The position numbers were made by a program, and so were the translations under genes. 64,000 nt of DNA. Source: Methanobacteriota archaeon (GTDB taxonomy: Archaea > Thermoplasmatota > E2 > JACPAO01 > JAHWKR01). The stretch is from the NCBI GenBank assembly GCA_019347805.1, contig JAHWKR010000010.1:3364-67363 (forward strand), read 5' to 3'. Positions 8,388 to 30,667 of the stretch are shown here, piece after piece. A model generated the notes under the pieces. It saw only the letters and a program-made list of their open reading frames with translations, had not been told where the DNA came from and did no database searches. Each line of letters opens with the position of its first letter. Within the stretch, counting starts at the first letter, position 1.

Positions 8388-8594
8388 TCACCGCTGCACG
8401 GTGAGGTTCTCGAGTTCGCGTTCGATCTCGTTCTGGCTTTTCCCGGTCTTCTCCTTGATGATGCCGACGAGTTTCTCGGCGTTGCCTTCGGCTTGTTTCA
8501 GTTCGCTGTCGGTGACCTGGCCCCAACGTGCCTTGATCGCGCCCGTGAACTGGTCCCAGTTGCCTTCGATCTGTTTCTTGGTGCCTTCCTTCAT
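8388..8594 (-). CDS. CsbD-family general stress protein
   Basis: 68 aa, MKEGTKKQIEGNWDQFTGAIKARWGQVTDSELKQAEGNAEKLVGIIKEKTGKS, a typical CsbD repeat. The longer 132-aa ORF extension was rejected. A T-rich tract follows the stop. Confidence 0.8.
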   Translation of the reverse strand: MKEGTKKQIEGNWDQFTGAIKARWGQVTDSELKQAEGNAEKLVGIIKEKTGKSQNEIERELENLTVQR

Positions 8595-8955
8595 AGTGTC
8601 ACCTTCAGACCCGCTCGTGGCGATGGCAGTTAAGACTTGGTGGGAGCGGCGGAAGACATGTCGCGGCGGTCGGCGGGGAGCGTTGTCTTGTCGTCCCATA
8701 CACTGTCGCAACACATGGCATCCGCCCTCTCTGGCATCCCATGGTCGAGTCTCGCGGACCACCCGAAGGCGTCCACGAATGGGCATGTCTTCGCGATATG
8801 ATTATATGGACCGCGTCCGCTTCACTGCCTGGTGTCCCTTCATGGGCCTCCTCGAGGATGGATGTGCGCGCGTCCGGTGCGTCCTTTCTTCGGGTGGTCT
8901 GTCCCTTTCCGAACGCTGGCGCGGGATCGGTGACGGACGCAGGACAGGAATTGCT

Positions 8956-9666
8956 ATGGTGGCGATGACAGACGAGGTGGACTCCGAACGGCTCGGGCGC
9001 GTCATGAAGGCGCTCGCCAACCCGGTGCGTGTGGATCTCTTGAAGGCCCTGCGTTCGCCGAAGACCATCACCGAGATCCGGTTGCATCCGCGCAGGAAGG
9101 ACGGCAACCTGCACCCGGAGCGCGTGATGAGCCGCGTCACGGTGCGTGAACATCTCGTCCAGCTGCTCGACATCGGTGTCGTGCAGGCGCGCCGGGCGAC
9201 CCGGGAGGGACGGACGGTCGATGTCTATATTGTCAACCATCGTCAGCTCTTCGCCTTGACCGAGGAGTTGCGCCAGCTCGCCGAGCTGCGGCCGGACGGC
9301 CAGACCGTGGGGGACGCGACACAGGAGGACCCGGTGGAGCCACCGCGGTTCCCGGAGGGCCCCAAGCTGGTCCTCGCGGGCGGCATCCCGAAGGGGCGCG
9401 TCTTCCCCTTGAACGGCGACGGGGAACGCTGGCGCATCGGTCGTCATCGTGGTGCCGAGGTCTGGCTCGATTACGATCCTTATCTGTCGTCGGAGAACGC
9501 GGAGGTGGTGCGCACGCGCAAGGGCTTCGTGCTGCACGACCTCGGCCGGTCCAGGAACGGCACCTACCTGAACTGGGAGGAGCTTGCGCGTGGCGCCGAG
9601 GCGCCGCTCAGTGACGGTGACCTCATCGGTGTCGGGCGCTCTGTGCTCGTTTTCCGTTCCCGCTGA
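8956..9666 (+). CDS. transcriptional regulator with an N-terminal ArsR-type wHTH and a C-terminal FHA domain
   Basis: HTH region LANPVRVDLLKALRSPKTITEI. FHA region WRIGRHRGAEVWLDYDPYLSSENAEVV...LHDLGRSRNGTYLN...LSDGDLIGVG (G-R, S-x-x-N/H and NGT motifs). The 8401-8955 part of the ORF is antisense to csbD and was rejected. Confidence 0.7.
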   Translation: MVAMTDEVDSERLGRVMKALANPVRVDLLKALRSPKTITEIRLHPRRKDGNLHPERVMSRVTVREHLVQLLDIGVVQARRATREGRTVDVYIVNHRQLFALTEELRQLAELRPDGQTVGDATQEDPVEPPRFPEGPKLVLAGGIPKGRVFPLNGDGERWRIGRHRGAEVWLDYDPYLSSENAEVVRTRKGFVLHDLGRSRNGTYLNWEELARGAEAPLSDGDLIGVGRSVLVFRSR

Positions 9667-11842
9667 GATCGCGTTGCACCTCGGCGAGCGCGTCACGGAA
9701 CGCCGGTGCGTTGCGGTCGCGCCGTTGCGGGTCCTTGGCGAGCGCTTTCTCGAGCACCGGCCGTAAGGGATCAGGGACGCCGTCGAGGGACGGCGGTCCG
9801 CCTTCGATGATGGTCTTGCGCACGTCCCAGTCGAGCAGGTGCTCGGGGACGAGCGGGTCACCGGTGAGGCATTCGTAGAGGACGACGCCGGTCGAGTAGA
9901 TGTCGCTCGATGGGGCGGTGGGGAGGCCGCGGGTCTGTTCGGGGGACATGTAGCGCAGGGTGCCCGGTTGGCTGCCGGTGCGGGTCGGGTCGCCGAGGGT
10001 GGTGTCGGGCGCGGCGACGTGCGCGGTGCCGAAGTCGGCGAGACGCGGTGTGCCGTCTTCGGTGAAGAGGATGTTGGAAGGCTTCACGTCCCGGTGGACG
10101 ACCCCTGCCTTGTGGGCGGTGTCGAGCGCTTCGAGCACCGCCATGGTGACGCGGATCGCCTCGTCGGCGGGCAATGGACCGTTTTCGGCGATGCGGCTTT
10201 TGAGCGAGCCCCCGCCGAGGTGCTCGTAGACCAGGACCGGTTCGCCGCGCACCTCTTCCGTGGCGATGAAGCGGACGATGTGCGGGTGCTGCAGGCGTCC
10301 GACGGCGTAGGCCTCGCGCAGGAGGACCCGCCGCGCGTCGCGGTCGATGCGGTGGGTGCGTTTGAGGACGACGGTGTCGCCGGCGACGACGTCATCGGCG
10401 CGATAGACGGTGCCGGTGCCGCCTTCGCCGATGACGCCCTCGATGCGGTAGCGGCCGCCGATGGTCTGTCCTGGGATCCAGTCGCGCGTCTGGGGCACCT
10501 CCGACCAGCGCGAGCGCACCGCCCAGGCGAGCGCGGTGTGCTGTTCGTCGGAGATGCCGAGGTTGGCGCGCATGCGCGCGAGCGCGTCGTCGCTCTTCGG
10601 GTCGAGGTCGCCCTCGCTCATGGCGCCTTCGAGCGAGGCGACGTAGCGTTCCACGGCGTCCCGTTGCGATGCGCCCGCGGCGTCGAGAGGGGCGGGAGCG
10701 ACGGCGCGGAACGGATCGGTCATGAAGTAGGGGCGCAGCGCGAAGACGAGACCGCCGGCGATGGCGACCGACAGGATGGCGGCGATGACCTCGGCGACGA
10801 CACCCGAGCCGGGCATGAGCGTCAGGAAGAGCGGCCGCATGCCGGGGAAGAACGCCACCGCGGCGAGCAGTCCGAAGAGCGACAAGGCGAAGGCGGGGGC
10901 GCGCAGACGGGGGCTGTCGAACTGGTAGCGCAGCACGCCCATCCAGAGCAGTGCGGGACGGACGGCGACGACGTCGAAGTAGATCCAGAACGTGAACGGG
11001 GCGACCACGGGGCGGAGCGTCCGGCTGAGGATGCCTTCCATGACACCGAGGAAGAGCAGGAGGATGACGAAATCGATGCTGGTATGATGGGCGGGCGGTG
11101 CGCGTTCACGGGCGCGCACAAGATAGGCGATGGCCCAGACGAGGGCGACGAGGTTGGCGAGGAGGAGGAGGCTCCAGACCAGGTAACGCTGGTTGCCGGG
11201 GACGAGGAGACCGGCGACGCCTTCGGCGCGCAGGATGTTGCCGAGCGTGCCGCTGTAGAACGCGTCGAGAGGGATGAAGGTGGCCATGTGGGCGGCACGG
11301 ATGCCGAAGGCGGCGAAGACGAACTGGAACTGGCGGCGGCGCACGGGGGAGGTCTCGTGCGGCAGGAGGAGCGTCCAGCGCCACAGGACGGCGATCCAGC
11401 CGCCGATGGCCACGAGGTCCATGAAGAGGAAGCCGGGGATGGAGCGGGCGTGGGCGGTCAGGTAGCCGGCAGGATCGGTGGGATAGAGGGCGAGGAGGAC
11501 GACGGCGGGGACGAAGACGAGGGCGCGCAGGAGCCAGGGGTGGCGGCGGAACGTCGCGACGCGCGTCGGATAGATGAGGGCGAGGTAGAGGATGAGGAAG
11601 CTCGTCGTGGGGTCGAACCAGGTCTTGGCGCGCGTGCCGACGAGCGACCAGTGGGTGCCGCGGGGGAAGCCGAAGGTGAAGGCCCAGCCGAGCGCCGTGG
11701 AGGCGTTGAACGCGAAGAGCAGGGCGAGGACCCAGCTCAGTTCACTGCGTGGCCGCTTGACGATGAGGAAGACGGCGAGTGCGTACTGGATGAACGCCGA
11801 AAAGACGTAGAACCCCGAGGTCGCGTTCCAGTCGAAGGCCAC
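9623..11842 (-). CDS. membrane-anchored Hanks-type Ser/Thr protein kinase (about 10 TM helices followed by a C-terminal kinase domain)
   Basis: Kinase motifs are GEGGTGTVYRA (Gly-rich loop), VLK (Lys), HRDVKPSNIL (catalytic loop), DFG and SPE. The N-terminal half is polytopic membrane. Start is uncertain, with GTG at 11842 proposed. The ORF-track extension to 12109 would overlap the divergent BNR gene's promoter. Confidence 0.8.
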   Translation of the reverse strand: MAFDWNATSGFYVFSAFIQYALAVFLIVKRPRSELSWVLALLFAFNASTALGWAFTFGFPRGTHWSLVGTRAKTWFDPTTSFLILYLALIYPTRVATFRRHPWLLRALVFVPAVVLLALYPTDPAGYLTAHARSIPGFLFMDLVAIGGWIAVLWRWTLLLPHETSPVRRRQFQFVFAAFGIRAAHMATFIPLDAFYSGTLGNILRAEGVAGLLVPGNQRYLVWSLLLLANLVALVWAIAYLVRARERAPPAHHTSIDFVILLLFLGVMEGILSRTLRPVVAPFTFWIYFDVVAVRPALLWMGVLRYQFDSPRLRAPAFALSLFGLLAAVAFFPGMRPLFLTLMPGSGVVAEVIAAILSVAIAGGLVFALRPYFMTDPFRAVAPAPLDAAGASQRDAVERYVASLEGAMSEGDLDPKSDDALARMRANLGISDEQHTALAWAVRSRWSEVPQTRDWIPGQTIGGRYRIEGVIGEGGTGTVYRADDVVAGDTVVLKRTHRIDRDARRVLLREAYAVGRLQHPHIVRFIATEEVRGEPVLVYEHLGGGSLKSRIAENGPLPADEAIRVTMAVLEALDTAHKAGVVHRDVKPSNILFTEDGTPRLADFGTAHVAAPDTTLGDPTRTGSQPGTLRYMSPEQTRGLPTAPSSDIYSTGVVLYECLTGDPLVPEHLLDWDVRKTIIEGGPPSLDGVPDPLRPVLEKALAKDPQRRDRNAPAFRDALAEVQRDLSGNGKRAQSARHR

Positions 11843-12096
11843 ACTTCCCTCTCCGCCACCACACAGGGCGTAGGGGAGGAAAGTTCCTGCCCAGGTATTT
11901 GTTTTGGGGTGGGCCTTGATGGTCTCACACTTTACCCTATACCTCCAAGGATGCAGGGCCCGCCTTCGTGGCACCCGCGGTCGGGAGGGGTCGCCGCCCC
12001 TCCCGTTCCCTTTTCCCGGACCCCTTCTGCGTGGTGCAGGGGACCCGGTCCACGGAACCCTTTTCAAGACTTTTCTTCGTCTGTGGCCGAGCCGCC

Positions 12097-13632
12097 ATGC
12101 GTCCCGCACTGCTCCTTGCCCTGGTCCTCCTCGCCCTCCCCTCCCTCGCGGGCTGCCTCGATGACGCGGTGCCGAGCCGTGACGACGGGGCCGACGAGCT
12201 CCCCCAGCCGTTCCCGACGCTGCCCGACGATGTGACCCCCTTCAGCCGGATGCTGTGCGATGGCGACACGCTCGCGTCCTTCAAGGAGGTGCGCGAGGAT
12301 GGTTGCAACGTGCATGTCACCGCCGAGAGCGGCCCGGCCGCCGAGGTGTCCCTCGCGGTCGACCCCACCGACCCGCTCGCCCTCGTCGGTGGCAGCAAGG
12401 ACTTCTCGCTTGGTATGGACGAGCGCTGCGGGAAGTACAACGTCTGGTCGGGCGTGCATGTGAGCCATGACGGCGGCCGCACCTGGACGCACGACCTGTT
12501 GCCGGGCCATCCCGGTGATGACCGTGAGACCGCGCTCAGTGTGTACGCCTGCGGCAGCGATCCGGTGGTCGTCGTCGACCCGAACGGCGTGTTCTACTAT
12601 GTGAGCATCCATTTCACGGCGGACCCCGAGGGGGACGATCCACCGGTCGCCGAGTTGGGGCCGGTGTGGGGCTCGTCGCTCCTGAACGCGGGGTTGGCGG
12701 TGACGCGGAGCCTCGACCAGGGCCGCACGTGGGAGGACCCGGTGGTGCTCGTGCACCGCGAGGATGGAAGCCTCATCGACAAGGAATGGGCCGCGGTGGA
12801 CGCCACGACCGGGAGCGTCTATGTCTCCTATCTCGACACGGGCGACGGCGCGTTCTATGTGCAGCGCAACGACGACGGCGGCGTCACATGGGACGGTCCT
12901 TTCCTCGTCGATGCGGGCGAGGACGGCACGCAACAGTTCGGTCAGGTGGCGGTCGACCCCGAAGGCGTCGTCCACTTCACCTACTGGTCGACCGACGACG
13001 GGAACGATGTCAGCGCGGTCTATCATCGCTCGAGCGCGGACCACGGCCGGACGTGGAGCGAACGCGGCCTCGTGGTGCCTTTCGTGCCGGTCTTCGACTT
13101 CGGTTTCACGCACAAGTACCGCATCGTATCGGCCCCGGCGCTCGCCGTGGACCCGGTGGTCGGGACGCTCTACGTCGCATATCCGTCTCCGGCGGCGATG
13201 CGGGGGACGGCGACACCGGCTGGGTACCTGGACCTCTACATCACGGCCTCCAGCGACGGCGGCCGGACGTGGAACGACCCGGTGCGGGTCAACGACGAAC
13301 GCGCGGCGCCCCTGAACGGCCAGGCCCTGCAGACCCTCGCCGTCGGACCTGACGGCATCGTGCACACCACCTGGCTCGACTATCGGCACGATCCCAGCGG
13401 TCAGTGGTCCTACCTCTACTATGCTTACTCGACGGACGACGGTGTGACCTGGTCGGAGAACGCCCGCGTGAGCGATGTCCCGTTCGACGGCACCGGCGGC
13501 TACCACCAGTCGGGCTCGGGGACGATCGGGGACTACAACGGCCTCGCCGTCTCGTCCGAGGCGGTGCACGCGTTCTGGGCCGACACGCGATATGGGCGCA
13601 ACGACGTGTTCAGTGCCACGATCCTCGGGTAG
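12097..13632 (+). CDS. BNR/Asp-box repeat lipoprotein (sialidase-like beta-propeller)
   Basis: Signal peptide and lipobox MRPALLLALVLLALPSLAGC. At least six Asp-box repeats (SHDGGRTW, SLDQGRTW, NDDGGVTW, SADHGRTW, SSDGGRTW, STDDGVTW). Confidence 0.8.
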   Translation: MRPALLLALVLLALPSLAGCLDDAVPSRDDGADELPQPFPTLPDDVTPFSRMLCDGDTLASFKEVREDGCNVHVTAESGPAAEVSLAVDPTDPLALVGGSKDFSLGMDERCGKYNVWSGVHVSHDGGRTWTHDLLPGHPGDDRETALSVYACGSDPVVVVDPNGVFYYVSIHFTADPEGDDPPVAELGPVWGSSLLNAGLAVTRSLDQGRTWEDPVVLVHREDGSLIDKEWAAVDATTGSVYVSYLDTGDGAFYVQRNDDGGVTWDGPFLVDAGEDGTQQFGQVAVDPEGVVHFTYWSTDDGNDVSAVYHRSSADHGRTWSERGLVVPFVPVFDFGFTHKYRIVSAPALAVDPVVGTLYVAYPSPAAMRGTATPAGYLDLYITASSDGGRTWNDPVRVNDERAAPLNGQALQTLAVGPDGIVHTTWLDYRHDPSGQWSYLYYAYSTDDGVTWSENARVSDVPFDGTGGYHQSGSGTIGDYNGLAVSSEAVHAFWADTRYGRNDVFSATILG

Positions 13633-13805
13633 TGGTGGTTTTCGGGCATCCCCGGGACTACTTTCGGTCACCCCCTGTCCACCTTTTTGGTCTCCCCACG
13701 CCCATCCCCCTTCATCGGCGCGACCGGGCCGTCCCACCCCGGCGGCGATGCGCACAAAGAGCCATCACTGCCGCAGGACGTCGGCCGTGCCGGGGAGGCA
13801 ATGTC

Positions 13806-14663
13806 ATGGACGACGAAGACGATGAGCGGACGCCAGGCCACACGGCGGCGTCCGTGGAAGGACCGCCGCTTTGGAGCGCGTGGCGCGCGCAAGACACGCA
13901 CGGCGCGCCCGGGGCCACGACGGAGACGTTCCCGCTCGGGTTGCCGGTGCTTTCGGGCGCCGACGGGGCACCGGCCGGTACGACCACCCTGCTCGAGGTC
14001 GGCCACATGTGGTCGCTCCTGCGCCACCGCATGGTGCTCGAGGCCTACCACCGCGGGCTTCCGGTCCTCCAGCTCGTCGGCGGCCACCGTCTCGACCCGT
14101 ACGGCCTGGCCCGTGCCGCGCGGGCCGCCGGCGAGGACGCGGAGGAGGTGCTCGGCCACGCGCAGGCGGCACGTGCCTTCACGGTGCATCAACTCTCGGC
14201 GTTCGTCGAGGAGGAGTTGCCGCGTCGTCTCAGCGGACCTGCGCTCGTCGTCCTCTCCGACCCGCTCGCGCTCTACGCCGGTGGCGAGGTGGAAGAGGAG
14301 GAAGGCCGGCGGCTCCTGCGTCGCGCTTTGCGGCGTTTCGTGCGCGCGGTCGCCGCGGCAGGCGCCTATGGTGTCGTCGCCGAGCGGCCGTTCGCGCGTG
14401 ACGACGCCGGTCGTGAGCTCTTGCGTCTGGCACGCCATGTCCAGGTGCGGCCGGCGGACGGCGGCATCGTCGCTGATGTCGTCCACAGCAAACGGCGCCT
14501 GCTGCAACCGACGGCACGGCCGCAGGCGCGCCTGGCCGACTATGGGGTCCAGGACCTCGGCCCCAGCCTGGTCGCGCTCCCGGAACCGGTCGCCACCGTG
14601 CGCGGTCCCCACTTCATGACCGGTCGTGTCGGGCATCTCAAGGTGCTCGCGGAGGGGATCTGA
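13806..14663 (+). CDS. hypothetical protein with a RecA/KaiC-like motif layout but a degenerate P-loop, 285 aa
   Basis: LGLPVLSGADGAPAGTTTLLEVG resembles the RecA-family L-helix plus P-loop but lacks the GKT lysine. ALVVLSDPLALYAGG resembles Walker B (hhhhDS). Its stop overlaps the next ATG (TGATG at 14660-14665). The fold assignment is inferred from motif spacing only. Confidence 0.45.
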   Translation: MDDEDDERTPGHTAASVEGPPLWSAWRAQDTHGAPGATTETFPLGLPVLSGADGAPAGTTTLLEVGHMWSLLRHRMVLEAYHRGLPVLQLVGGHRLDPYGLARAARAAGEDAEEVLGHAQAARAFTVHQLSAFVEEELPRRLSGPALVVLSDPLALYAGGEVEEEEGRRLLRRALRRFVRAVAAAGAYGVVAERPFARDDAGRELLRLARHVQVRPADGGIVADVVHSKRRLLQPTARPQARLADYGVQDLGPSLVALPEPVATVRGPHFMTGRVGHLKVLAEGI

Positions 14664-14986
14664 TGGGCCGCACGTTGCCGACCTTCCGGCGTGTCATCGA
14701 CGAGGAGGAGCGGCGCTGGAACGACCTGCGGCGCGGGCTCGGTCCGGAGGCGCAACGCGCTTTCGACGCGGTCTTCCAGCGCGCGCGGCGTCATGCCAGC
14801 GCGGCGGGCAACCAGGGCGTCGTCGAACCGATGTGGGCCATCATGCTGACGGTGCTCATCGAGAACGAGATGGAGCTGCAACGGCTCCTTGCGCGTGTCG
14901 CCTGGTTGGAGTCGGAGCTGGAGCGCAGGCCGCACAGCGAGACGTTCTATGCACCGGTCGTCGAGGACGAGGGCTGGGCGCCGTGA
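14663..14986 (+). CDS. small alpha-helical hypothetical protein (107 aa)
   Basis: The ORF is bracketed by translational coupling on both sides. Its ATG overlaps the upstream stop. Its TGA overlaps the GTG of the polB-like gene (GTGA at 14983-14986). Confidence 0.45.
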   Translation: MGRTLPTFRRVIDEEERRWNDLRRGLGPEAQRAFDAVFQRARRHASAAGNQGVVEPMWAIMLTVLIENEMELQRLLARVAWLESELERRPHSETFYAPVVEDEGWAP

Positions 14987-17325
14987 GCGCGACCGAGGGG
15001 CATCTCATCGATGTCCACCCGGACGGCCAGGGCCGCATGGTCTCCTGGGTGCGCACGAAAGAAGGTGTCGCACGTTTCGTCGAGCCGTTCGTGCCACGCT
15101 TCCATGTGCATGCGTCCGAGGCGGATCGCCGGCGGCTCACGCGTCGCCTGGCGCACCTGGACGGCCGGCTCGGGCTTTCGACGGTGCGGGCGCGCCTCGG
15201 CCTTGCGCGTGGCAAGACGGAGGTGCTCGAGGTCGCCGTGCCACATCCGCTCGTTCTGCGCGAGGTGGCGCAGGCGGTCGATCGCTGGGGCGAGCATCGC
15301 GCCTACGATCTGTTCGATGTCGACCTGCGCGACAGCCATCGCTATCTCCTTGCCAAGCGGGTGTTCCCGTTCGCGCGCGTGCGTGTCGCCCAAGAGGGCC
15401 GGAACGTGTCGATGGAGGCGTTAGACGGCCAGTGGGACCTGGCGCCGGAACCGCCGATGTTGCGCACGCTGACCTTGTCGGCGGAACTCGATGCCCCGAC
15501 CGGGATCCCGGAAGGCCCGGCCCACCCGGTCCGGCGTGTGCGGCTTGGCGACGAGGAATACCGCGGCGACGAGGTCGCGGTCTTGGAAGGGTTGCGCGAA
15601 GGCCTTCTGCGGCTCGACCCTGACGTGCTCCTCACCCGCTCCGGCGACCGGTTCCTTTTCGGCTATCTGCGGGCGCGGGCGAAGGCCAACGGCATGCGTC
15701 TGCGTTTGGGGCGTGACCCGGACCCGAGAGGCCCGGCACGACGCGGCCGTACGTTCTACACCTATGGCATGGTCAAGTGGCAACCACCGGTGGAGGTCCT
15801 GCATGGACGCATCCATCTCGATGTCGCCTCCAGTTTCTTCCATCGTGAATCCGGTCTTGGCGGTCTCGTGGACCTGTCGCGTATCTCGTCGTGTCCGTTG
15901 CAGGAGCTTGCGCGGCTCGGCCCGGGGACGGCGGTGACGGCGGTGCAGATCGACCGCGCCAAGCGCGAGGAACGGCTGGTCCCGTGGAAGAAGAACCTGC
16001 CGGAGACGATGAAGTCGGAGCGTCGGCTCGTCGAGTCGGACCGTGGCGGTTTCATCCATGACCCGTCGGTGGGGCTCTTCGACGATGTCGTGGAGCTCGA
16101 TTTCTCGTCCATGTACCCGAACATCATGGTGACGCGCAACGTTTCACCCGAGACGGTGGGATGCATCTGTTGTTCGCCGTCGACGCCGGGTGCATCGGTC
16201 GTGCCGCAGGTCGGCTATCTCACCTGTCGGCGCCCGGGGTTCGTGGGGCGTTCCATCAAGCCGCTCGTCGCGCGCCGGGAGTCGTTCAAGCGGCTCATGA
16301 AGAGCGACCCGAAGGACCGGGCGAGATGGCAGGGCGCGTCGGACGCGTTGAAGTGGCTCCTGGTCTGTTCGTTCGGTTACCAGGGGTATCGCAACGCGCG
16401 TTTCGGACGCATCGAATGCCATGAGGCGATCTGTGCCTGGGGTCGGGAGATCCTCTTGACGACCGGCGAGGTGGCGCGCGAGGAGGGCTTCGAGACGTTG
16501 CACGGCATCGTCGACAGCCTGTGGGTCAAGCGTCTTCGCAAGGACGCGGACGCGGAGCGTCTGTCGCGGCGGGTGTCGAAGGAGGTGGGCATCCGGTTCG
16601 ACATCGAGGGGGCGTTCGACTGGATCGTCTTCCTGCCGACGCGGGGGCACGACGCGACGGGGGTCGAAGCGGTAGGGGCCATGAACCGGTTCTACGGCAA
16701 GTTCTCCGAGCCGCCGGCGAAGAAGGCGCGTAGCAACGCGGGCCAGAGTCCGGACCATCTGGCGGGGGGTCAGCTCAAGGTGCGCGGGGTCGAGATGCGG
16801 CAGCGCAGCGCGCCGGGGATCGTGCGTCGGGCGCAGGAGGCGTTCCTTTCCGCGGTCTTTCCGGCAACGGACGCGGCGGGGTTCCGCGCGCTCCTTCCCG
16901 AGGCCATCGAGGCGGTGCGTCCGGTCGTCGAGGAGTTGCGTTCGGGGGCGGTGCCGCTATCCGACCTGTTGGTGCAGAAGACGGTGGGGCAGCCGCTTGC
17001 CGAGTACCGCATGGAGACGGAGACGAAGAGCGCCCTGCGGCTCTTGGCGCAGGCGGGGGTGCAGGTGCCACCGGGCGACGTGGTGCGTTATGTCGTTCTG
17101 GATGGTCGCGCCAAGACGCCGGAGCGGCGGGTCGTCGAGGAGCGGGTGATGACGGGTGACGAGCACTATGATGTCGCGGCGTACGAGACGTTGCTGTTCC
17201 GTTCCCTTGAGAGTCTCTTGTTGCCGTTCGGGTGGGACCTTGCGCGGATGCGCGACCACTTTTCGAATGCGCCGCAGGCGCGTCTGGATCGCTATGGGGT
17301 GGAGGCGGTGCGTGTCAGGTCTTGA
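14983..17325 (+). CDS. family-B DNA polymerase paralog with degenerate catalytic motifs (predicted inactive)
   Basis: Motif A is intact (DFSSMYPNIM). Motif B is recognisable (KWLLVCSFGYQGY). Motif C YGDTDS is replaced by HGIVDS. Exo II FDF is replaced by FLF (LTRSGDRFLFGYL). Exo I is D-V-D (LFDVDL). GTG start at 14983. Confidence 0.75.
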   Translation: MSATEGHLIDVHPDGQGRMVSWVRTKEGVARFVEPFVPRFHVHASEADRRRLTRRLAHLDGRLGLSTVRARLGLARGKTEVLEVAVPHPLVLREVAQAVDRWGEHRAYDLFDVDLRDSHRYLLAKRVFPFARVRVAQEGRNVSMEALDGQWDLAPEPPMLRTLTLSAELDAPTGIPEGPAHPVRRVRLGDEEYRGDEVAVLEGLREGLLRLDPDVLLTRSGDRFLFGYLRARAKANGMRLRLGRDPDPRGPARRGRTFYTYGMVKWQPPVEVLHGRIHLDVASSFFHRESGLGGLVDLSRISSCPLQELARLGPGTAVTAVQIDRAKREERLVPWKKNLPETMKSERRLVESDRGGFIHDPSVGLFDDVVELDFSSMYPNIMVTRNVSPETVGCICCSPSTPGASVVPQVGYLTCRRPGFVGRSIKPLVARRESFKRLMKSDPKDRARWQGASDALKWLLVCSFGYQGYRNARFGRIECHEAICAWGREILLTTGEVAREEGFETLHGIVDSLWVKRLRKDADAERLSRRVSKEVGIRFDIEGAFDWIVFLPTRGHDATGVEAVGAMNRFYGKFSEPPAKKARSNAGQSPDHLAGGQLKVRGVEMRQRSAPGIVRRAQEAFLSAVFPATDAAGFRALLPEAIEAVRPVVEELRSGAVPLSDLLVQKTVGQPLAEYRMETETKSALRLLAQAGVQVPPGDVVRYVVLDGRAKTPERRVVEERVMTGDEHYDVAAYETLLFRSLESLLLPFGWDLARMRDHFSNAPQARLDRYGVEAVRVRS

Positions 17326-27643: not shown

Positions 27644-30600
27644 CTAGAGCCAGGCGTCCAGGCCCTTCTGTTCGACCGTCGAAAGGTCGTCGAAGCCGAA
27701 GGCGCCTTTGATGTAATTGTCCAGCATGTCCTTGTACCAGTCGAGGTCGAGGCGATAGCCGCGGTCCTCCCACTTCGGGAGCACCTCGACCGGCCACATG
27801 AACTCGATCGGCTTGATCCCCGGCTTCTTCTTGCCCGAACCTTCCAGGCCAGGCAAGGGGCGATTGGCGACGACGAAGCGGAACTTGCGCGTCGCCCGGA
27901 GCCCCGTCTCGTCACCGCTCTGCTTGAGCAGTTGGTCGAGCGCCTCGGCGCGCTTGGCGAACGTCGACAAGGAACCGTCGGGATTCCGCTTGTAGCGCCG
28001 CGCCGGCTGGACGCTCTGGATGAGCACCAGTTCGGCGGGGTCGACGGTGGCGATGCGCATCTTGGCGATGACCTCGTTGGCCGCCTTCTTGATGCTCGCC
28101 TTGAGGCTCGCCCGCGCCTGCTCCTCGGTCTCCCACACCAGGTTCTCCCCCATGGCCCGCTCCATCACCCGGGCGAGCACGTTGCGCGCGAGGTCCGCCT
28201 TGTCGCTGCCCTTGAAGTTGTTCCCCTTGACCTCCATCTGCAACCGGCCACCGTGGGCGTCGAACATGAGGTAGTTCTTGTGCACCACGAAGACCATGGC
28301 GTCGTGGATCTCCGGTTCCAGCTCGAACTCTTCGTAGCGCAGCTCGTCGCGGAAGCGGCGGTTCAGGGCGTCGACCGCCTCGATGGCCTGTTCCGGTGTC
28401 GTCATCCAACCCGACGGATCGGCAAGACCATGGGCGTCGAAGACATCGGCGACGCGGTCGATGTTGGCGCCGTTTCGACCGCACGCGAGATAGATGCCGT
28501 CGGTGTCGCCGTAGACGACGCGGATCTTGCGCTTGTCGAGGTCCCTGCGCGATTCGTGCAGGATGCGTTGTCCCTCCGTGGTGATGCGGGCGCCGGCGAG
28601 GACGTTGAACTGGCGGCACGACACATTGTCGGCGACGAGGATGCCGTGCGTCCCGGCGTTGCGTGCCGCCTTCAGGCTGGCATAGTTGAGCCGGAGCCGC
28701 GCGACATCATGCTCTGAGATGCCGGAATCCGGCTTCTTCGCTTCGTTCATGGCGTGCTTGACCTTGGCGATCATGCCGAGGATGGCGCTCATGCCGAGGT
28801 TCACGACACCGGGGCCGTCGCGCTGGCGCACCCCGATGAGCACGCCTTTGTCGGCGAAATCCTCGTCGCTCCCGGGGCTCCGGACGGCGTAGCGGCCCGA
28901 ATCGATGAGCCGAGGGCTCGCCCGCTTCAGCCACACCCAGGCGTCCGGGTCCTCGCCGGCGTGGGCCAGCCGGATCGTGTCGGCGCCGACGTTCAGGGCC
29001 TTCAGGATGGTGGGATACATCGCCCCCACGTCGGCGGCGACGACATGCCACCACGGGATGAACTCGCTCTTGAGGTCCTGCGGATGGAGCGTGAGACCCC
29101 CCGGAAGATCGTAGCCTTCCTTGCCGCCCTCGCGGTCGAGGTCGTGGACGAGATGCGGATAGGAGAGCCATTCGGGCATCTCGTCGCCATACTTCGCGAC
29201 GCGGACGAGCTCCCTGTGGCTCCCGGTGCGCCCTTCTGCGCCGATGCCGCGGGCGTACTCGGCGATCTGCTCGGGGGTCGGCTCGTCGGCGATCTCGCGC
29301 TGCACGAGTCCCGCCAGTCCGGCGGCGCGGCAGGTGGCGGGCATGAGGCGTTTTCGGTGGGCGGCACGGATGAGGCCGATGTGGTCCCACATCTTGGTGT
29401 TCATGCCCATGAACAGCTGTTCGAAGGTCATGCCTGTGGAGAACGCGAGCGGCAACGCCTGGATGACGAGGTGCATCGAGACGCCGAGCTGTTCGCGCAC
29501 GTCGTGTTCGTGGTAGCGCAACGTGCGCGGGTCGTCGAGGGCGAGGTCCTGTGCGGTGACATGCTCCCGTCCGTCGATCTCGACGCCCAAAAACGGCGCG
29601 AGCCCCTTGAGGGTCAGGTCATCGCGGAAGAAATAGAAACGGCGGGCGGCAAGGAACGTGTCGAGGCTCGCCGGATGCAGGATGGCCATGTCGTCGGGGC
29701 GGCCGAACTGGTACGACTTGTCCTTCCAGCACCAGGTCGAAAGGAACTCGGTGAAGACCTGGTCGACGCTGCGTTCGAGGCTGCCGTTCTTGCGGCCCCG
29801 TTCCTGCAGTTTCTTGACCCGTTCGTGGATCTTCAGATTGTCGAAGCCGAGGATGTTGTGGCCCGAGACGATGCCGGTGCTACGCACGGTCGTGGCGAAG
29901 CGCGCCAGCATATCGATCTCCTCGTCGACGTTGCGGGCCACCTCCTGGACGATCTCGGGCTCCCACCAGTCGTGCGGGGCGTGGTGGATGTCGAAGTCGA
30001 AGTCCTCCGTCTCGAGGTCGACCTTGGCGGAATAGGAGACCGGGAAGCGGGCGTGGCCGAGCATGTCGATCGGCAGGTCGTCCTCGCGCACGCCGACGTT
30101 GCCGTATTGCGTCGTCTCGATGTCGAACACCATCACATCGAGCGTCGTCGGCCGGCCTCCCGTCGCGAACGGCCAGTGGCCCCTGGCGGCCATGTCGACG
30201 GCGAAACGTTGCTGGTACGGCACGTCATGCTCGGCGGTGTAGGCGCCGAAGCGGTCGAAGAGCGCGTCCGAGACACGCGGCACGACGCCGGGGTGGCGGG
30301 TGAAGACCCGGAAACCGTCGCGCGTCCGGTCGTGCCAGAACGATTCCACCGTCTCGACGGGACCCAGTTCGGTGACGAGTCCGAGCGGGTCGCGTTCGTG
30401 CTGCTCGCCGCCGTTGCCTTCGGTCGACCGGCTCGCCTCGTCCACCGCCCGCAGCACGCTCCGTCGGAGCCCCTTGGTGTCCTTGCCGAGCGGGGCGTAA
30501 GCCCAGAAGTAGGGCTTGTGCAGTTCACCGACCGGCACCGGGTCGCGCCCCTTGAAGAAGGCGTGCGTGTTCGAGACGGAGAGGAGGACGTCCTCCATGG

Positions 30601-30667
30601 GCGGTCCTGGCGAGGTGGGGGGAGCGTAAAAGGTGCGCGGGGTGATGTCGTGTGGAGCGCGGTCCAT
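27644..30667 (-). CDS. polB: family-B DNA polymerase (catalytically intact, presumed replicative)
   Basis: 1007 aa. Exo I FDIETT. Exo II HNILGFDNLKI (FD retained). Motif A DVGAMYPTIL. Motif C VVYGDTDGIYL. No intein-like blocks seen. Confidence 0.9.
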   Translation of the reverse strand: MDRAPHDITPRTFYAPPTSPGPPMEDVLLSVSNTHAFFKGRDPVPVGELHKPYFWAYAPLGKDTKGLRRSVLRAVDEASRSTEGNGGEQHERDPLGLVTELGPVETVESFWHDRTRDGFRVFTRHPGVVPRVSDALFDRFGAYTAEHDVPYQQRFAVDMAARGHWPFATGGRPTTLDVMVFDIETTQYGNVGVREDDLPIDMLGHARFPVSYSAKVDLETEDFDFDIHHAPHDWWEPEIVQEVARNVDEEIDMLARFATTVRSTGIVSGHNILGFDNLKIHERVKKLQERGRKNGSLERSVDQVFTEFLSTWCWKDKSYQFGRPDDMAILHPASLDTFLAARRFYFFRDDLTLKGLAPFLGVEIDGREHVTAQDLALDDPRTLRYHEHDVREQLGVSMHLVIQALPLAFSTGMTFEQLFMGMNTKMWDHIGLIRAAHRKRLMPATCRAAGLAGLVQREIADEPTPEQIAEYARGIGAEGRTGSHRELVRVAKYGDEMPEWLSYPHLVHDLDREGGKEGYDLPGGLTLHPQDLKSEFIPWWHVVAADVGAMYPTILKALNVGADTIRLAHAGEDPDAWVWLKRASPRLIDSGRYAVRSPGSDEDFADKGVLIGVRQRDGPGVVNLGMSAILGMIAKVKHAMNEAKKPDSGISEHDVARLRLNYASLKAARNAGTHGILVADNVSCRQFNVLAGARITTEGQRILHESRRDLDKRKIRVVYGDTDGIYLACGRNGANIDRVADVFDAHGLADPSGWMTTPEQAIEAVDALNRRFRDELRYEEFELEPEIHDAMVFVVHKNYLMFDAHGGRLQMEVKGNNFKGSDKADLARNVLARVMERAMGENLVWETEEQARASLKASIKKAANEVIAKMRIATVDPAELVLIQSVQPARRYKRNPDGSLSTFAKRAEALDQLLKQSGDETGLRATRKFRFVVANRPLPGLEGSGKKKPGIKPIEFMWPVEVLPKWEDRGYRLDLDWYKDMLDNYIKGAFGFDDLSTVEQKGLDAWL

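What the first reader, a model, noticed from the sequence alone, without database searches (positions are those of the whole stretch)
13806..17325. Three-gene translationally coupled cassette ending in a family-B DNA polymerase paralog with degenerate catalytic motifs
The polymerase-like ORF (14983-17325) keeps motif A (DFSSMYPNIM) and a motif-B-like KxxxxSFGYQGY. Motif C reads HGIVDS instead of YGDTDS. The Exo II FD dipeptide is FLF. Loss of both nucleotidyl transfer and proofreading is therefore predicted. It is joined by overlapping stop/start codons (TGATG at 14660-14665, GTGA at 14983-14986) to a 107-aa helical protein and a 285-aa protein. In the 285-aa protein the segment LGLPVLSGADGAPAGTTTLLEVG followed by ALVVLSDPLALYAGG has the spacing of a RecA/KaiC P-loop and Walker B, but the P-loop lysine is missing. 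A catalytically inactivated PolB family in Euryarchaeota is established knowledge. Tight coupling to a possibly also inactivated RecA-like partner and a small protein is not something I can place in a known family. A conserved non-catalytic DNA-binding or scaffold module is one hypothesis. A catalytically active PolB (27644-30667) is present elsewhere in the window, so this copy is a paralog.
Basis: partly seen in the sequence, partly recalled or inferred. Interest (0 to 1): 0.8.

Follow-up and report, generated by a model that had tools for sequence, protein, structure and literature searches.

The report
Known archaeal damage-tolerance polymerase operon
The three overlapping genes are a new example of the already described archaeal iRadA-PPB2-PolB2 operon, which encodes a DNA-damage-tolerance polymerase and two helper proteins, so this is an ordinary member of a known system and not a new one.

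Summary
Three co-directional ORFs (13806-14663, 14663-14986, 14983-17325) overlap stop/start and have coding-type GC3. Their products are a RadA/Rad51-fold protein without a P-loop, a 107-aa helical protein, and a family-B polymerase with motif C HGIVDS and no Exo II Asp.

The cassette is not unplaced. It is the iRadA-PPB2(arCOG07300)-PolB2 operon, described in 2013/2014 and modelled as a "PolB2 mutasome" in 2025.
- The iRadA family profile hits Pyrococcus RadA at 7e-17.
- The AF2 model matches RAD51/RadA/DMC1 (Foldseek E ~1e-10).
- The small protein starts with the family signature MGRT (R3, R9) and carries Pfam DUF8156.
- In 69 loci from other archaea and bacteria with enough upstream DNA, 57 have both partners and 48 have them adjacent in the same order.

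The predicted loss of polymerase activity is not supported. Both metal-ligand Asp residues (D373, D511) are kept. Sulfolobus Dpo2, which also lacks the first motif C Asp (IID), is a robust exonuclease-free extender polymerase.

Local peculiarities:
- Near-identical PIP-like boxes sit on both iRadA and PolB2.
- The FxxA-type contact motif is degenerate (MKSE).
- The window's other PolB is very divergent.

Verdict: new member of a known kind, low interest.

The parts
13806..14663 (+). iRadA: inactivated RadA/Rad51-family protein, 285 aa. The ATPase core fold is at about aa 45-225. The N-terminus is acidic and disordered (aa 1-40). The C-terminal tail is disordered.
   Evidence: A profile of 35 family members hits Pfu RadA at 7e-17, then Rad51, DMC1 and RecA. 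Family members carry PF08423 Rad51. The AF2 core has pLDDT above 85. Foldseek against PDB gives RAD51/RadA/DMC1 on top at E ~1e-10, probability 1.0. A homolog sits directly upstream of PPB2-PolB2 in 61 of 80 loci.
13965..14021 (+). Remnant of the Walker A region (GAPAGTTTLLEVGHMWSLL, aa 54-72). The P-loop GxxGxGKT is absent and there is no Lys.
   Evidence: In the alignment of the family profile to Pfu RadA, GEFGSGKTQ falls opposite a shortened, non-conserved stretch. In the model, strand 60-64 runs through G65 straight into helix 66-82.
14169..14192 (+). ARAFTVHQ: the most conserved iRadA family motif (R123, F125, T126 and Q129 are invariant). It corresponds to RadA 'ARAFNsnHQ'.
   Evidence: Alignment A2 invariant columns and the alignment to RadA.
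14241..14276 (+). Remnant of Walker B (ALVVLSDPLALY, aa 146-157). The catalytic Asp position is occupied by Ser in the family-profile alignment to RadA (family consensus hhhhSD).
14520..14549 (+). PIP-like (PCNA-binding-type) box PQARLADYGV in the iRadA C-terminal region (aa 239-248), followed by a 37-aa low-confidence tail.
   Evidence: It aligns with the archaeal iRadA C-terminal 'QTTLDEF' motif. The pattern Q..[LIVM]..[FYW] occurs in the iRadA tail in 31 of 61 loci. A short helix is predicted at aa 243-246 inside a disordered tail. PCNA motifs in iRadA are described in PMC11791011.
14663..14986 (+). PPB2 (arCOG07300 / Pfam DUF8156): 107-aa all-helical partner protein. Its N-terminal arm is MGRTLPTFR, with Arg3 and Arg9.
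   Evidence: phmmer finds a homolog immediately upstream of PolB2 in 66 of 80 loci, and 60 of those 66 begin (M/V/L)G(R/K)T. A precomputed PF26485 DUF8156 hit is on record for this exact protein. The single-sequence AF2 model is all-helical but low confidence, pLDDT 57. The MGRT motif and R3/R9 are defined in PMC11791011.
14983..17325 (+). PolB2: family-B DNA polymerase of the PolB2/Dpo2 group, 780 aa, GTG start.
   Evidence: Pfam PF00136 at 3.5e-23. NCBIfam NF004418 at 1.9e-123 over the full length, below its cutoff. These are the same best models as for PolB2s of other operon-bearing lineages. The best PDB relatives are Thermococcales PolB at 9e-49. There are 1219 homologs.
15643..15660 (+). 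Degenerate Exo II (GDRFLF; the catalytic Asp is replaced by Leu).
   Evidence: HMMER alignment to P. abyssi PolB GDNF(D)F. The Pfam exonuclease domain scores only E 0.073. No conserved DxE or YxxxD columns appear in alignment A1.
16006..16050 (+). Loop predicted, by homology to published models, to contact iRadA and PPB2. The FxxA-type position reads MKSE here (family: F in 42/52, A or G in 50/52). It is followed by the conserved D(R/K) motif, SDRGG (D353, R354).
   Evidence: The roles of the region before 'DK' and of DK itself are taken from PMC11791011; they are not modelled here.
16099..16128 (+). Polymerase motif A, DFSSMYPNIM. The catalytic Asp D373 is retained and invariant in the family.
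16351..16389 (+). Polymerase motif B, KWLLVCSFGYQGY. K457 is retained. The canonical N, S and second Y are replaced by V, C and F.
16501..16518 (+). Polymerase motif C, HGIVDS. The first Asp of DxD is Ile and the second (metal-ligand) Asp, D511, is retained. HG(I/L/V)(V/I)DS is found in all 55 loci where the pattern search located it.
17272..17301 (+). PIP-like box PQARLDRYGV near the PolB2 C-terminus (aa 764-773). It is 8/10 aa and 24/30 nt identical to the iRadA box.

Best explanation
The cassette is a chromosomal iRadA-PPB2-PolB2 operon (the 'PolB2 mutasome') of an uncultured euryarchaeon, apparently of the Thermoplasmatota-like lineage.

Proposed mechanism:
- The three genes are translated from one transcript through overlapping stop/start codons.
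- PolB2 is the catalytic subunit. It is a proofreading-deficient but probably active family-B polymerase that extends mismatched or lesion-opposed primer ends during translesion synthesis.
- iRadA is a RadA/Rad51-fold subunit that can no longer bind or hydrolyse ATP. It is predicted to dock on a PolB2 loop in the way RadA subunits dock on each other.
- PPB2 is a small helical protein, predicted to be a trimer. Its N-terminal MGRT arm inserts between PolB2 and iRadA near the DNA.
- PIP-like boxes on iRadA and PolB2 would tether the complex to PCNA.

What is shown here: gene structure, family membership of all three proteins, the state of the motifs, and conservation of the linkage.

What is inferred from published work on homologs: polymerase activity, the TLS role, damage induction, the 1:1:3 complex and clamp binding.
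For: Gene structure and starts.

PolB2:
- It makes a full-length match to the same NCBIfam models as operon-linked PolB2s from Methanomassiliicoccales, Bathyarchaeia, Methanomicrobia and Nitrospiraceae.
- Its motif C HGIVDS is the family signature (47 of 55 loci identical).
- D373, K457 and D511 are retained.

iRadA:
- Profile against PDB: RadA 7e-17.
- PF08423 on family members.
- Foldseek to RAD51/RadA/DMC1 at 1e-10, TM to target up to 0.73.
- P-loop absent.

PPB2:
- MGRT with R3/R9, and homologs between iRadA and PolB2 in 66 of 80 loci.
- DUF8156.

Linkage:
- 57 of 69 loci with at least 1300 bp upstream have both partners, and 48 have them in the same adjacent order, in archaea and bacteria.
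- A close relative, L083, also has the trio.

Literature:
- The operon was described in PMC4104785.
- The complex model, MGRT arm, D(K/R) motif and clamp motifs are in PMC11791011.
- Dpo2 is active, exonuclease-free and a mismatch/lesion extender (PMC8764526).
Against: - No experiment exists for any euryarchaeal PolB2. Activity and the TLS role are extrapolated from Sulfolobales enzymes that share only the family-level motifs.
- The FxxA-type contact position in this PolB2 reads MKSE. Glu is never seen at position 4 in 52 other loci, so the published PolB2-iRadA docking mode may not hold unchanged.
- In the closest relatives iRadA is not adjacent (L081, L084), or neither partner is within 6 kb (L082). 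iRadA may therefore be dispensable in this clade.
- No orc1/cdc6 gene or other damage-response gene was found among the ORFs scanned between 0 and 42 kb.
- The PPB2 structure model is low confidence, and no multimer could be modelled.
Confidence: 0.85

Rival explanations
1. One reading: a catalytically dead PolB paralog that acts, together with a dead RecA-like protein and a small protein, as a non-catalytic DNA-binding or scaffold module.
For: The first Asp of the motif C DxD and the preceding Tyr are replaced (HGIVDS). The Exo II Asp is lost. The motif B Asn, Ser and Tyr are replaced. iRadA lacks a P-loop. This was the published view up to 2014 (PMC4104785).
Against: Both metal-ligand carboxylates (D373, D511) and the motif B Lys are kept and invariant across the family. 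That fits selection for catalysis. Sulfolobus Dpo2, which has the same type of substitution (IID), shows robust nucleotide incorporation and is required for damage-induced mutagenesis (PMC8764526; PMC11791011).
Confidence: 0.08
2. The complex works in replication initiation or regulation of origin use, as an Orc-linked function, and not in translesion synthesis.
For: Makarova et al. 2014 noted arORC2 genes next to the operon in many euryarchaea and proposed this alternative. orc1/cdc6 enrichment is confirmed in PMC11791011.
Against: No orc1/cdc6 gene was found among the ORFs scanned around this cassette; its neighbours are a BNR-repeat protein, a Ser/Thr kinase, a rhodanese and an aldo-keto reductase. 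In Sulfolobales the Orc1-2 link is now read as damage-response regulation.
Confidence: 0.05
3. The cassette is a decaying remnant. iRadA is on its way to loss in this clade, and only PPB2-PolB2 remain functional.
For: This iRadA is very divergent, 16-26% identical to the other iRadAs in alignment A2, and the first search found only 3 close homologs. The close relatives L081 and L084 have PPB2-PolB2 without an adjacent iRadA. The FxxA-type motif in PolB2 is degenerate.
Against: The iRadA ORF is intact, has coding-type GC3 of 0.84 and is tightly coupled. It keeps the family-invariant R123, F125, T126 and Q129 and a PIP-like box. It is 51-59% identical to two other intact homologs (alignment and BLASTP identity), one of them in a trio. 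The core folds with high confidence.
Confidence: 0.07

Closest known systems
Sulfolobus islandicus / Saccharolobus solfataricus Dpo2 (PolB2) operon with iRadA and PPB2 (arCOG07300): the 'PolB2 mutasome' (PMC4104785, PMC11791011, PMC8764526)
   Same: The same three protein families occur in one operon. Motif C lacks the first Asp, the exonuclease site is degenerate, and the D(K/R) motif is present. iRadA lacks both the ATPase site and the N-terminal domain. PPB2 has the MGRT arm.
   Different: This is a euryarchaeal, high-GC member with a larger PolB2 (780 aa) and a better preserved exonuclease-domain scaffold. PIP-like boxes sit on both iRadA and PolB2. The FxxA-type position reads MKSE. iRadA has a 37-aa tail after the PIP-like box (the box alone leaves 39 aa after Y246). 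No experimental data exist for this lineage.
E. coli Pol V mutasome (UmuD'2C-RecA-ATP)
   Same: The architecture is parallel: a TLS polymerase, a RecA/Rad51-family subunit bound through an oligomerisation-type motif, and a small oligomeric subunit with an N-terminal arm near the active site (PMC11791011).
   Different: Pol V uses a Y-family catalytic subunit, an active RecA with ATP, and a dimeric UmuD'. The catalytic and small subunits are not homologous to those here.
Eukaryotic Pol zeta (Rev3-Rev7(2)-Pol31-Pol32)
   Same: It is a B-family, exonuclease-dead, damage-linked 'extender' polymerase that works as a multisubunit complex.
   Different: The accessory subunits are unrelated and there is no Rad51-fold subunit.
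Archaeal RadB / RadA paralogs and KaiC-like ATPases
   Same: They share the RecA-fold core without the RadA N-terminal domain.
   Different: RadB and KaiC keep Walker A and B. iRadA has lost them and is specifically linked to PolB2 and PPB2.

Membership tests
PolB2 (Dpo2-type family-B polymerase) | Family-B polymerase fold and sequence, closest to archaeal PolB3-type enzymes | tested here: met
   PF00136 at 3.5e-23. Thermococcales PolB at 9e-49, against Sso Dpo1 at 2.8e-21 and E. coli Pol II at 1.8e-7.
PolB2 (Dpo2-type family-B polymerase) | Motif C with the first Asp of DxD substituted and the second Asp kept | tested here: met
   HGIVDS aligned to YIDTDG. The same motif occurs in 47 of 55 operon-linked PolB2s.
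PolB2 (Dpo2-type family-B polymerase) | Exonuclease active site lost | tested here: met
   The Exo II Asp is replaced by Leu. The Pfam exonuclease domain scores only E 0.073. No conserved DxE or YxxxD columns appear in A1.
PolB2 (Dpo2-type family-B polymerase) | Conserved D(K/R) motif in the loop before motif A, preceded by the iRadA-binding beta-alpha (FxxA-type) segment | tested here: inconclusive
   D353-R354 is present and invariant or nearly so. The FxxA-type position reads MKSE here, against F in 42/52 and A/G in 50/52 loci. Binding was not modelled.
PolB2 (Dpo2-type family-B polymerase) | Placement inside the PolB2 clade in a phylogeny with PolB1 and PolB3 references | not tested
As a proxy, the best NCBIfam models are the same (NF004418/NF004416) as for operon-linked PolB2s of four other lineages.
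PolB2 (Dpo2-type family-B polymerase) | Polymerase activity without 3'-5' exonuclease; extender in TLS | not testable with these tools
   Known only for Sulfolobales Dpo2 (PMC8764526).
iRadA (inactivated RadA; arCOG07763/04294/08101) | RadA/Rad51 ATPase-core fold | tested here: met
   Profile against PDB gives Pfu RadA at 7e-17. Foldseek gives RAD51/RadA/DMC1 at E ~1e-10, probability 1.0. The single sequence alone is not significant (Rad51 E 0.59).
iRadA (inactivated RadA; arCOG07763/04294/08101) | Walker A/B ATPase residues missing | tested here: met
   There is no GK[ST], and the P-loop is shortened to one residue between strand 60-64 and helix 66-82. The Walker B Asp position is not conserved.
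iRadA (inactivated RadA; arCOG07763/04294/08101) | Lacks the RadA N-terminal helical (HhH) domain | tested here: met
   Residues 1-40 are low-complexity and disordered. Alignment to 1pzn covers only the RadA core, residues 111-289.
iRadA (inactivated RadA; arCOG07763/04294/08101) | Encoded next to PPB2 and PolB2 | tested here: met
   True in the window. Homologs are in the same position in 61 of 80 loci.
PPB2 (arCOG07300 / Pfam DUF8156) | Small (~90 aa) all-alpha protein | tested here: met
   The protein is 107 aa. The AF2 single-sequence model has helices 5-23, 28-47, 54-67 and 71-88, but low pLDDT of 57.
PPB2 (arCOG07300 / Pfam DUF8156) | N-terminal MGRT arm with Arg3 and Arg9 | tested here: met
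   The sequence is MGRTLPTFR. 60 of 66 homologs start (M/V/L)G(R/K)T.
PPB2 (arCOG07300 / Pfam DUF8156) | Sequence membership in the family model | tested here: met
   A precomputed PF26485 hit is on record for this exact protein. phmmer hits to the PolB2-adjacent ORFs go down to 1e-18. The local Pfam copy lacks the model.
PPB2 (arCOG07300 / Pfam DUF8156) | Homotrimeric coiled coil; 1:1:3 complex with PolB2 and iRadA | not testable with these tools
   Only single-chain prediction was available.

The most novel reading that the evidence does not exclude
In this small euryarchaeal clade the mutasome may be wired differently from the published model. The PolB2 FxxA-type contact is degenerate (MKSE). 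iRadA is highly divergent and unlinked in some close relatives. Both iRadA and PolB2 carry almost the same PIP-like box (PQARLxxYGV). iRadA might therefore be held in the complex mainly through a shared PCNA ring, with two protomers occupied, instead of through the Rad51-type docking motif.
Probability: 0.12. Interest if true: 0.35.

Novelty: new member of a known kind. Interest (0 to 1): 0.15.

Why it matters
It matters little beyond annotation. In the public MAG record the iRadA and PolB2 genes are labelled 'hypothetical protein' (the PPB2 label was not seen), and all three can be named iRadA, PPB2 and PolB2. The case shows that motif-based calls of a 'dead polymerase' are unsafe for this family. 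The dual PIP-like boxes and the degenerate docking motif add a data point for anyone testing the published mutasome model in Euryarchaeota, where no experiments exist.

Tried and rejected
- Single-sequence searches of the 285-aa protein gave nothing in Pfam or NCBIfam and only a non-significant Rad51 hit in PDB. The first homology search found 3 proteins. A profile built from operon neighbours was needed.
- The 107-aa protein had only spurious hits in the local Pfam, because that copy lacks PF26485.
- The single-sequence AF2 model of PPB2 was too poor (pLDDT 57) for a fold search.
- The afdb50 fold library was unavailable.
- A sigma-70 promoter and terminator scan found nothing useful and does not apply to archaea.
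- Look-ups of the second PolB in the contig index failed for both plausible starts.
- A viral-contig scan for the second PolB found no relatives.
- A mobile-element or provirus origin for the cassette was considered and rejected. GC content is uniform and the neighbours are housekeeping genes.
- The antisense ORF 13668-14636 has high GC3. It is the usual mirror artefact of a high-GC gene and has no homology support.

Full report
**Observation**

The window is uniformly high in GC, 63-71%. Three co-directional ORFs lie on the + strand:
- 13806-14663: 285 aa, ATG start, with GGAGG 7 nt upstream.
- 14663-14986: 107 aa. Its ATG shares one base with the preceding TGA, so TGATG lies at 14661-14665.
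- 14983-17325: 780 aa, with a GTG start inside a GTGA overlap.

Third-position GC is 0.83-0.89 in these frames. It is 0.50-0.57 in the longer upstream extensions that the mechanical ORF list offers (419 and 899 aa), so the short starts are the real ones. Two independent annotations call the same genes: the NCBI MAG proteins of 285 and 780 aa labelled 'Euryarchaeota archaeon', and a Logan assembly with 285, 107 and 780 aa. Small corrections apply: the TGATG coordinates are off by one, motif B has five residues between K and S instead of four, and the second PolB lies on the minus strand.

**The polymerase**

- Pfam detects the family-B polymerase domain at 3.5e-23. The exonuclease domain scores only E 0.073.
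- NCBIfam gives a full-length match to NF004418 (1.9e-123) and to NF004416, both below their strict cutoffs.
- Operon-linked PolB2s from Methanomassiliicoccaceae, Bathyarchaeota, Methanomicrobia and Nitrospiraceae, and the closest relative, have the same two best models.
- Against PDB sequences the best relatives are Thermococcales PolB (9e-49), then Sso Dpo1 (2.8e-21), Pol alpha, and E. coli Pol II.

The HMMER alignment to P. abyssi PolB shows the following:
- Exo II GDNF(D)F corresponds to GDRFLF, so the Asp is lost.
- Motif A DFrSLYPS corresponds to DFSSMYPN, so D373 is kept.
- Motif B KILANSYYG corresponds to KWLLVCSFG. K457 is kept. N, S and Y are replaced.
- Motif C YIDTDG corresponds to HGIVDS. 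The first Asp becomes Ile, and the second Asp, D511, is kept.

In a 13-sequence alignment D373, K457, H507, G508, D511 and S512 are invariant. In the genome loci the motif reads HGIVDS in 47 of 55 and HG(I/L/V)(V/I)DS in all 55. By established knowledge of family-B polymerases, the two carboxylates that ligate the catalytic metals are the motif A Asp and the second motif C Asp. Both are therefore intact. Only proofreading is clearly lost.

**The 285-aa protein**

Alone it has no Pfam or NCBIfam hit, only three close homologs, and a non-significant Rad51 hit in PDB (E 0.59). Homologs recovered from the positions upstream of PolB2 in other genomes (see below) gave a 35-sequence alignment, A2.
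- The A2 profile hits Pyrococcus RadA (7e-17), Rad51, DMC1, RAD51 paralogs, RadB and RecA.
- A database search with the same profile returns 720 proteins, and the listed ones carry PF08423 Rad51.
- An AlphaFold2 model has a confident core, with pLDDT 86-96 over about residues 60-190. The 40 N-terminal residues are disordered, and the tail from 227 is also disordered.
- Foldseek against the PDB puts RAD51, RadA ATPase domains and DMC1 on top, at E ~1e-10, probability 1.0 and TM to target up to 0.73.
- The P-loop is missing. Strand 60-64 passes through G65 directly into helix 66-82, there is no Lys, and the RadA GEFGSGKTQ aligns to a shortened, non-conserved stretch.
- The Walker B Asp position is not conserved.
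- The most conserved family motif is ARAFTxxQ (R123, F125, T126, Q129), which is the RadA 'ARAFN..HQ' segment.

**The 107-aa protein**

It begins MGRTLPTFR. phmmer finds homologs immediately upstream of PolB2 in 66 of 80 loci (E down to 1e-18), and 60 of these begin (M/V/L)G(R/K)T. The contig index holds a precomputed Pfam hit, PF26485 (DUF8156), for exactly this protein and for its close relatives. The local Pfam copy lacks that model, which explains the empty scans. A single-sequence AF2 model is all-helical but of low confidence.

**Conservation of the linkage**

A scan of one genome per species with a PolB2 alignment gave at least 597 confirmed matches. The 80 best were kept. They come from Thermoplasmata, Methanomassiliicoccales, Bathyarchaeia, Hadarchaeota, Methanomicrobia and Halobacteriota, and from bacteria such as Nitrospirota, Thermodesulfobacteriota and Armatimonadota.
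- Of 69 loci with at least 1300 bp upstream of PolB2, 57 contain homologs of both small genes.
- 48 of these have them adjacent in the order iRadA-PPB2-PolB2.
- In three loci (L069, L079, L080) iRadA lies downstream on the other strand.

Among the closest relatives (53-63% PolB2 identity) the picture varies:
- L083 has the trio.
- L081 and L084 have PPB2-PolB2 with other genes upstream.
- L082 has PolB2 without either partner within 6 kb.

**What it is**

This is the operon that Makarova and Koonin (2013) and Makarova, Krupovic and Koonin (2014, PMC4104785) described as PolB2 + inactivated RadA + arCOG07300. Timinskas, Timinskas and Venclovas (2025, PMC11791011) analysed it as the iRadA-PPB2-PolB2 'mutasome'. 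That paper reports:
- iRadA-PPB2-PolB2 as one of several gene orders seen in archaea, and the only one seen in bacteria;
- iRadA without the N-terminal domain and without ATPase residues;
- PPB2 as a three-helix protein predicted to trimerise;
- the MGRT arm with Arg3 and Arg9, inserted between PolB2 and iRadA;
- a D(K/R) motif in PolB2 that contacts this arm;
- a preceding beta-alpha segment that mimics the Rad51 oligomerisation motif;
- PCNA or beta-clamp motifs that are frequent in iRadA, rarer in PolB2, and rarely in both.

The window's proteins meet these features, except as noted below. Experimentally, S. islandicus and S. solfataricus Dpo2, whose motif C is IID, are robust polymerases with no exonuclease activity. 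They extend mismatches and lesion-opposed termini and are needed for damage-induced mutagenesis (PMC8764526; summary).

**Mechanism proposed**

Shown here:
- a single translationally coupled unit;
- a PolB2 with intact metal ligands and a dead exonuclease;
- a RadA-fold partner that cannot bind ATP;
- a helical partner with the MGRT arm.

Inferred from homologs:
- The three proteins form a 1:1:3 complex.
- PolB2 extends distorted primer ends after lesion bypass.
- iRadA and PPB2 stabilise or position it on DNA.
- The PIP-like boxes recruit it to PCNA.
- Expression is damage-inducible.

**Local peculiarities**

1. Both iRadA (aa 239-248, PQARLADYGV) and PolB2 (aa 764-773, PQARLDRYGV) carry a Q..L..Y box that is 8/10 aa and 24/30 nt identical. 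With the same simple pattern, 61 loci split into 6 with both, 2 with PolB2 only, 25 with iRadA only and 28 with neither. The boxes are conserved in the close homologs (QARLDDY, QARLDDW, QARLERF). The window's other PolB ends in the canonical QKGLDAWL.
2. The FxxA-type position in PolB2 reads MKSE. In 52 loci, position 1 is F in 42 and position 4 is A or G in 50, and never E. The nearest relative has FKAE.
3. No orc1/cdc6 gene was found among the ORFs scanned from 0 to 42 kb.

These points are compatible with a slightly different wiring of the complex, but nothing here tests that.

**The second PolB (27644-30667, minus strand)**

It has Exo I, II and III and motifs A, B and C intact (FDIET, NILGFD, YHEHD, DVGAMYP, KAARNAGTHG, YGDTDG), plus a C-terminal PIP box. 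It is nevertheless very divergent:
- Pfam 5e-7 and NCBIfam 1.2e-6 at best;
- PDB 1.6e-4;
- BLASTP against the cassette PolB2, E 0.016 over 24 residues.

A full HMMER search of 1.84 billion cluster representatives found only 103 relatives at E <= 0.001 and 51 at <= 1e-30. Several are about 1400 aa and match in two pieces, which would fit an inserted segment such as an intein. The alignments start at residues 24-28, so the true start is probably M24. It matches phage-type PolB phrog_262 at 1e-14, and no close relative was found in viral contigs. It is noted as a side lead.

**Verdict**

The system is already described, and the predicted catalytic death of the polymerase is contradicted by experiments on homologs that also lack the first motif C Asp. 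This is a new, unannotated member of a known kind, and interest is low.

Noticed in passing
window 27644-30667 (- strand): The window's 'active' PolB has all exonuclease and polymerase motifs and a C-terminal PIP box (QKGLDAWL) but is extremely divergent: Pfam 5e-7, PDB 1.6e-4, and only 103 relatives at E<=0.001 among 1.84 billion cluster representatives. Some relatives are ~1400 aa and match in two pieces. The likely true start is M24 (30598).
   Followed up: partly
window 14520-14549 and 17272-17301: Near-identical PIP-like boxes, PQARLADYGV in iRadA and PQARLDRYGV in PolB2 (8/10 aa, 24/30 nt identical). Having a box in both subunits is a minority state: 6 of 61 loci by a simple pattern.
   Followed up: partly
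window 16006-16020: The FxxA-type segment that published models use to dock PolB2 onto iRadA reads MKSE here. Glu at position 4 was not seen in 52 other loci (A or G in 50). The closest relative has FKAE.
   Followed up: partly
window 16162-16227: A CxCC...C cluster (C394, C396, C397, C415) between motifs A and B is invariant in the 13-sequence PolB2 alignment. It may be a metal site or disulfides. None of the passages read mention it.
   Followed up: no
L081 3516-4004, L084 875-1432, L085 158-577: In the closest relatives the PPB2 N-terminal arm reads IGRTLPTF, with an Ile codon where the start Met is expected. Gene callers extend the ORF upstream to 124-147 aa. This suggests a non-canonical start codon or an N-terminal extension.
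   Followed up: no
L081, L082, L084: Close relatives of this PolB2 (53-63% identity) lack an adjacent iRadA. In L081 a PemK toxin pair and a P450 gene lie upstream. In L084 an HVO_A0114-family gene lies upstream. L082 has neither partner within 6 kb. L084 and L085 share the downstream rhodanese and aldo-keto reductase synteny with the window.
   Followed up: partly
window 14550-14660: iRadA continues for 37 residues after the PIP-like box, at low model confidence. Thermoplasmata iRadAs have a weakly similar post-PIP tail (EVIAWGAPxRRTAR) that overlaps the PPB2 start in another frame.
   Followed up: no
window 14663-14983: PPB2 matches two PHROG families of unknown function (phrog_30126 at 4.9e-8, phrog_26583 at 1.3e-4), so PPB2-like proteins occur in some virus or provirus genomes.
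   Followed up: no
window 8401-12109: An FHA-domain protein (8401-9666, +) lies convergent with, and slightly overlapping, a large Ser/Thr protein kinase (9623-12109, -) whose N-terminal half looks hydrophobic and membrane-like by eye (not tested). A secreted-looking BNR-repeat protein follows (11968-13632, +).
   Followed up: no
window 13660-13665: An ACTTTC hexamer, which fits the ANTTTC pattern I recall (own knowledge, not checked here) for Orc1-2-dependent damage-response promoters in Sulfolobales, sits in the 173-bp intergenic region upstream of iRadA. It is a low-information match and was not tested against chance.
   Followed up: no
window 13668-14636 (- strand): A 322-aa antisense ORF with GC3 of 0.83 lies opposite iRadA. 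It is the usual mirror-frame artefact of a high-GC gene and has no homology support.
   Followed up: yes
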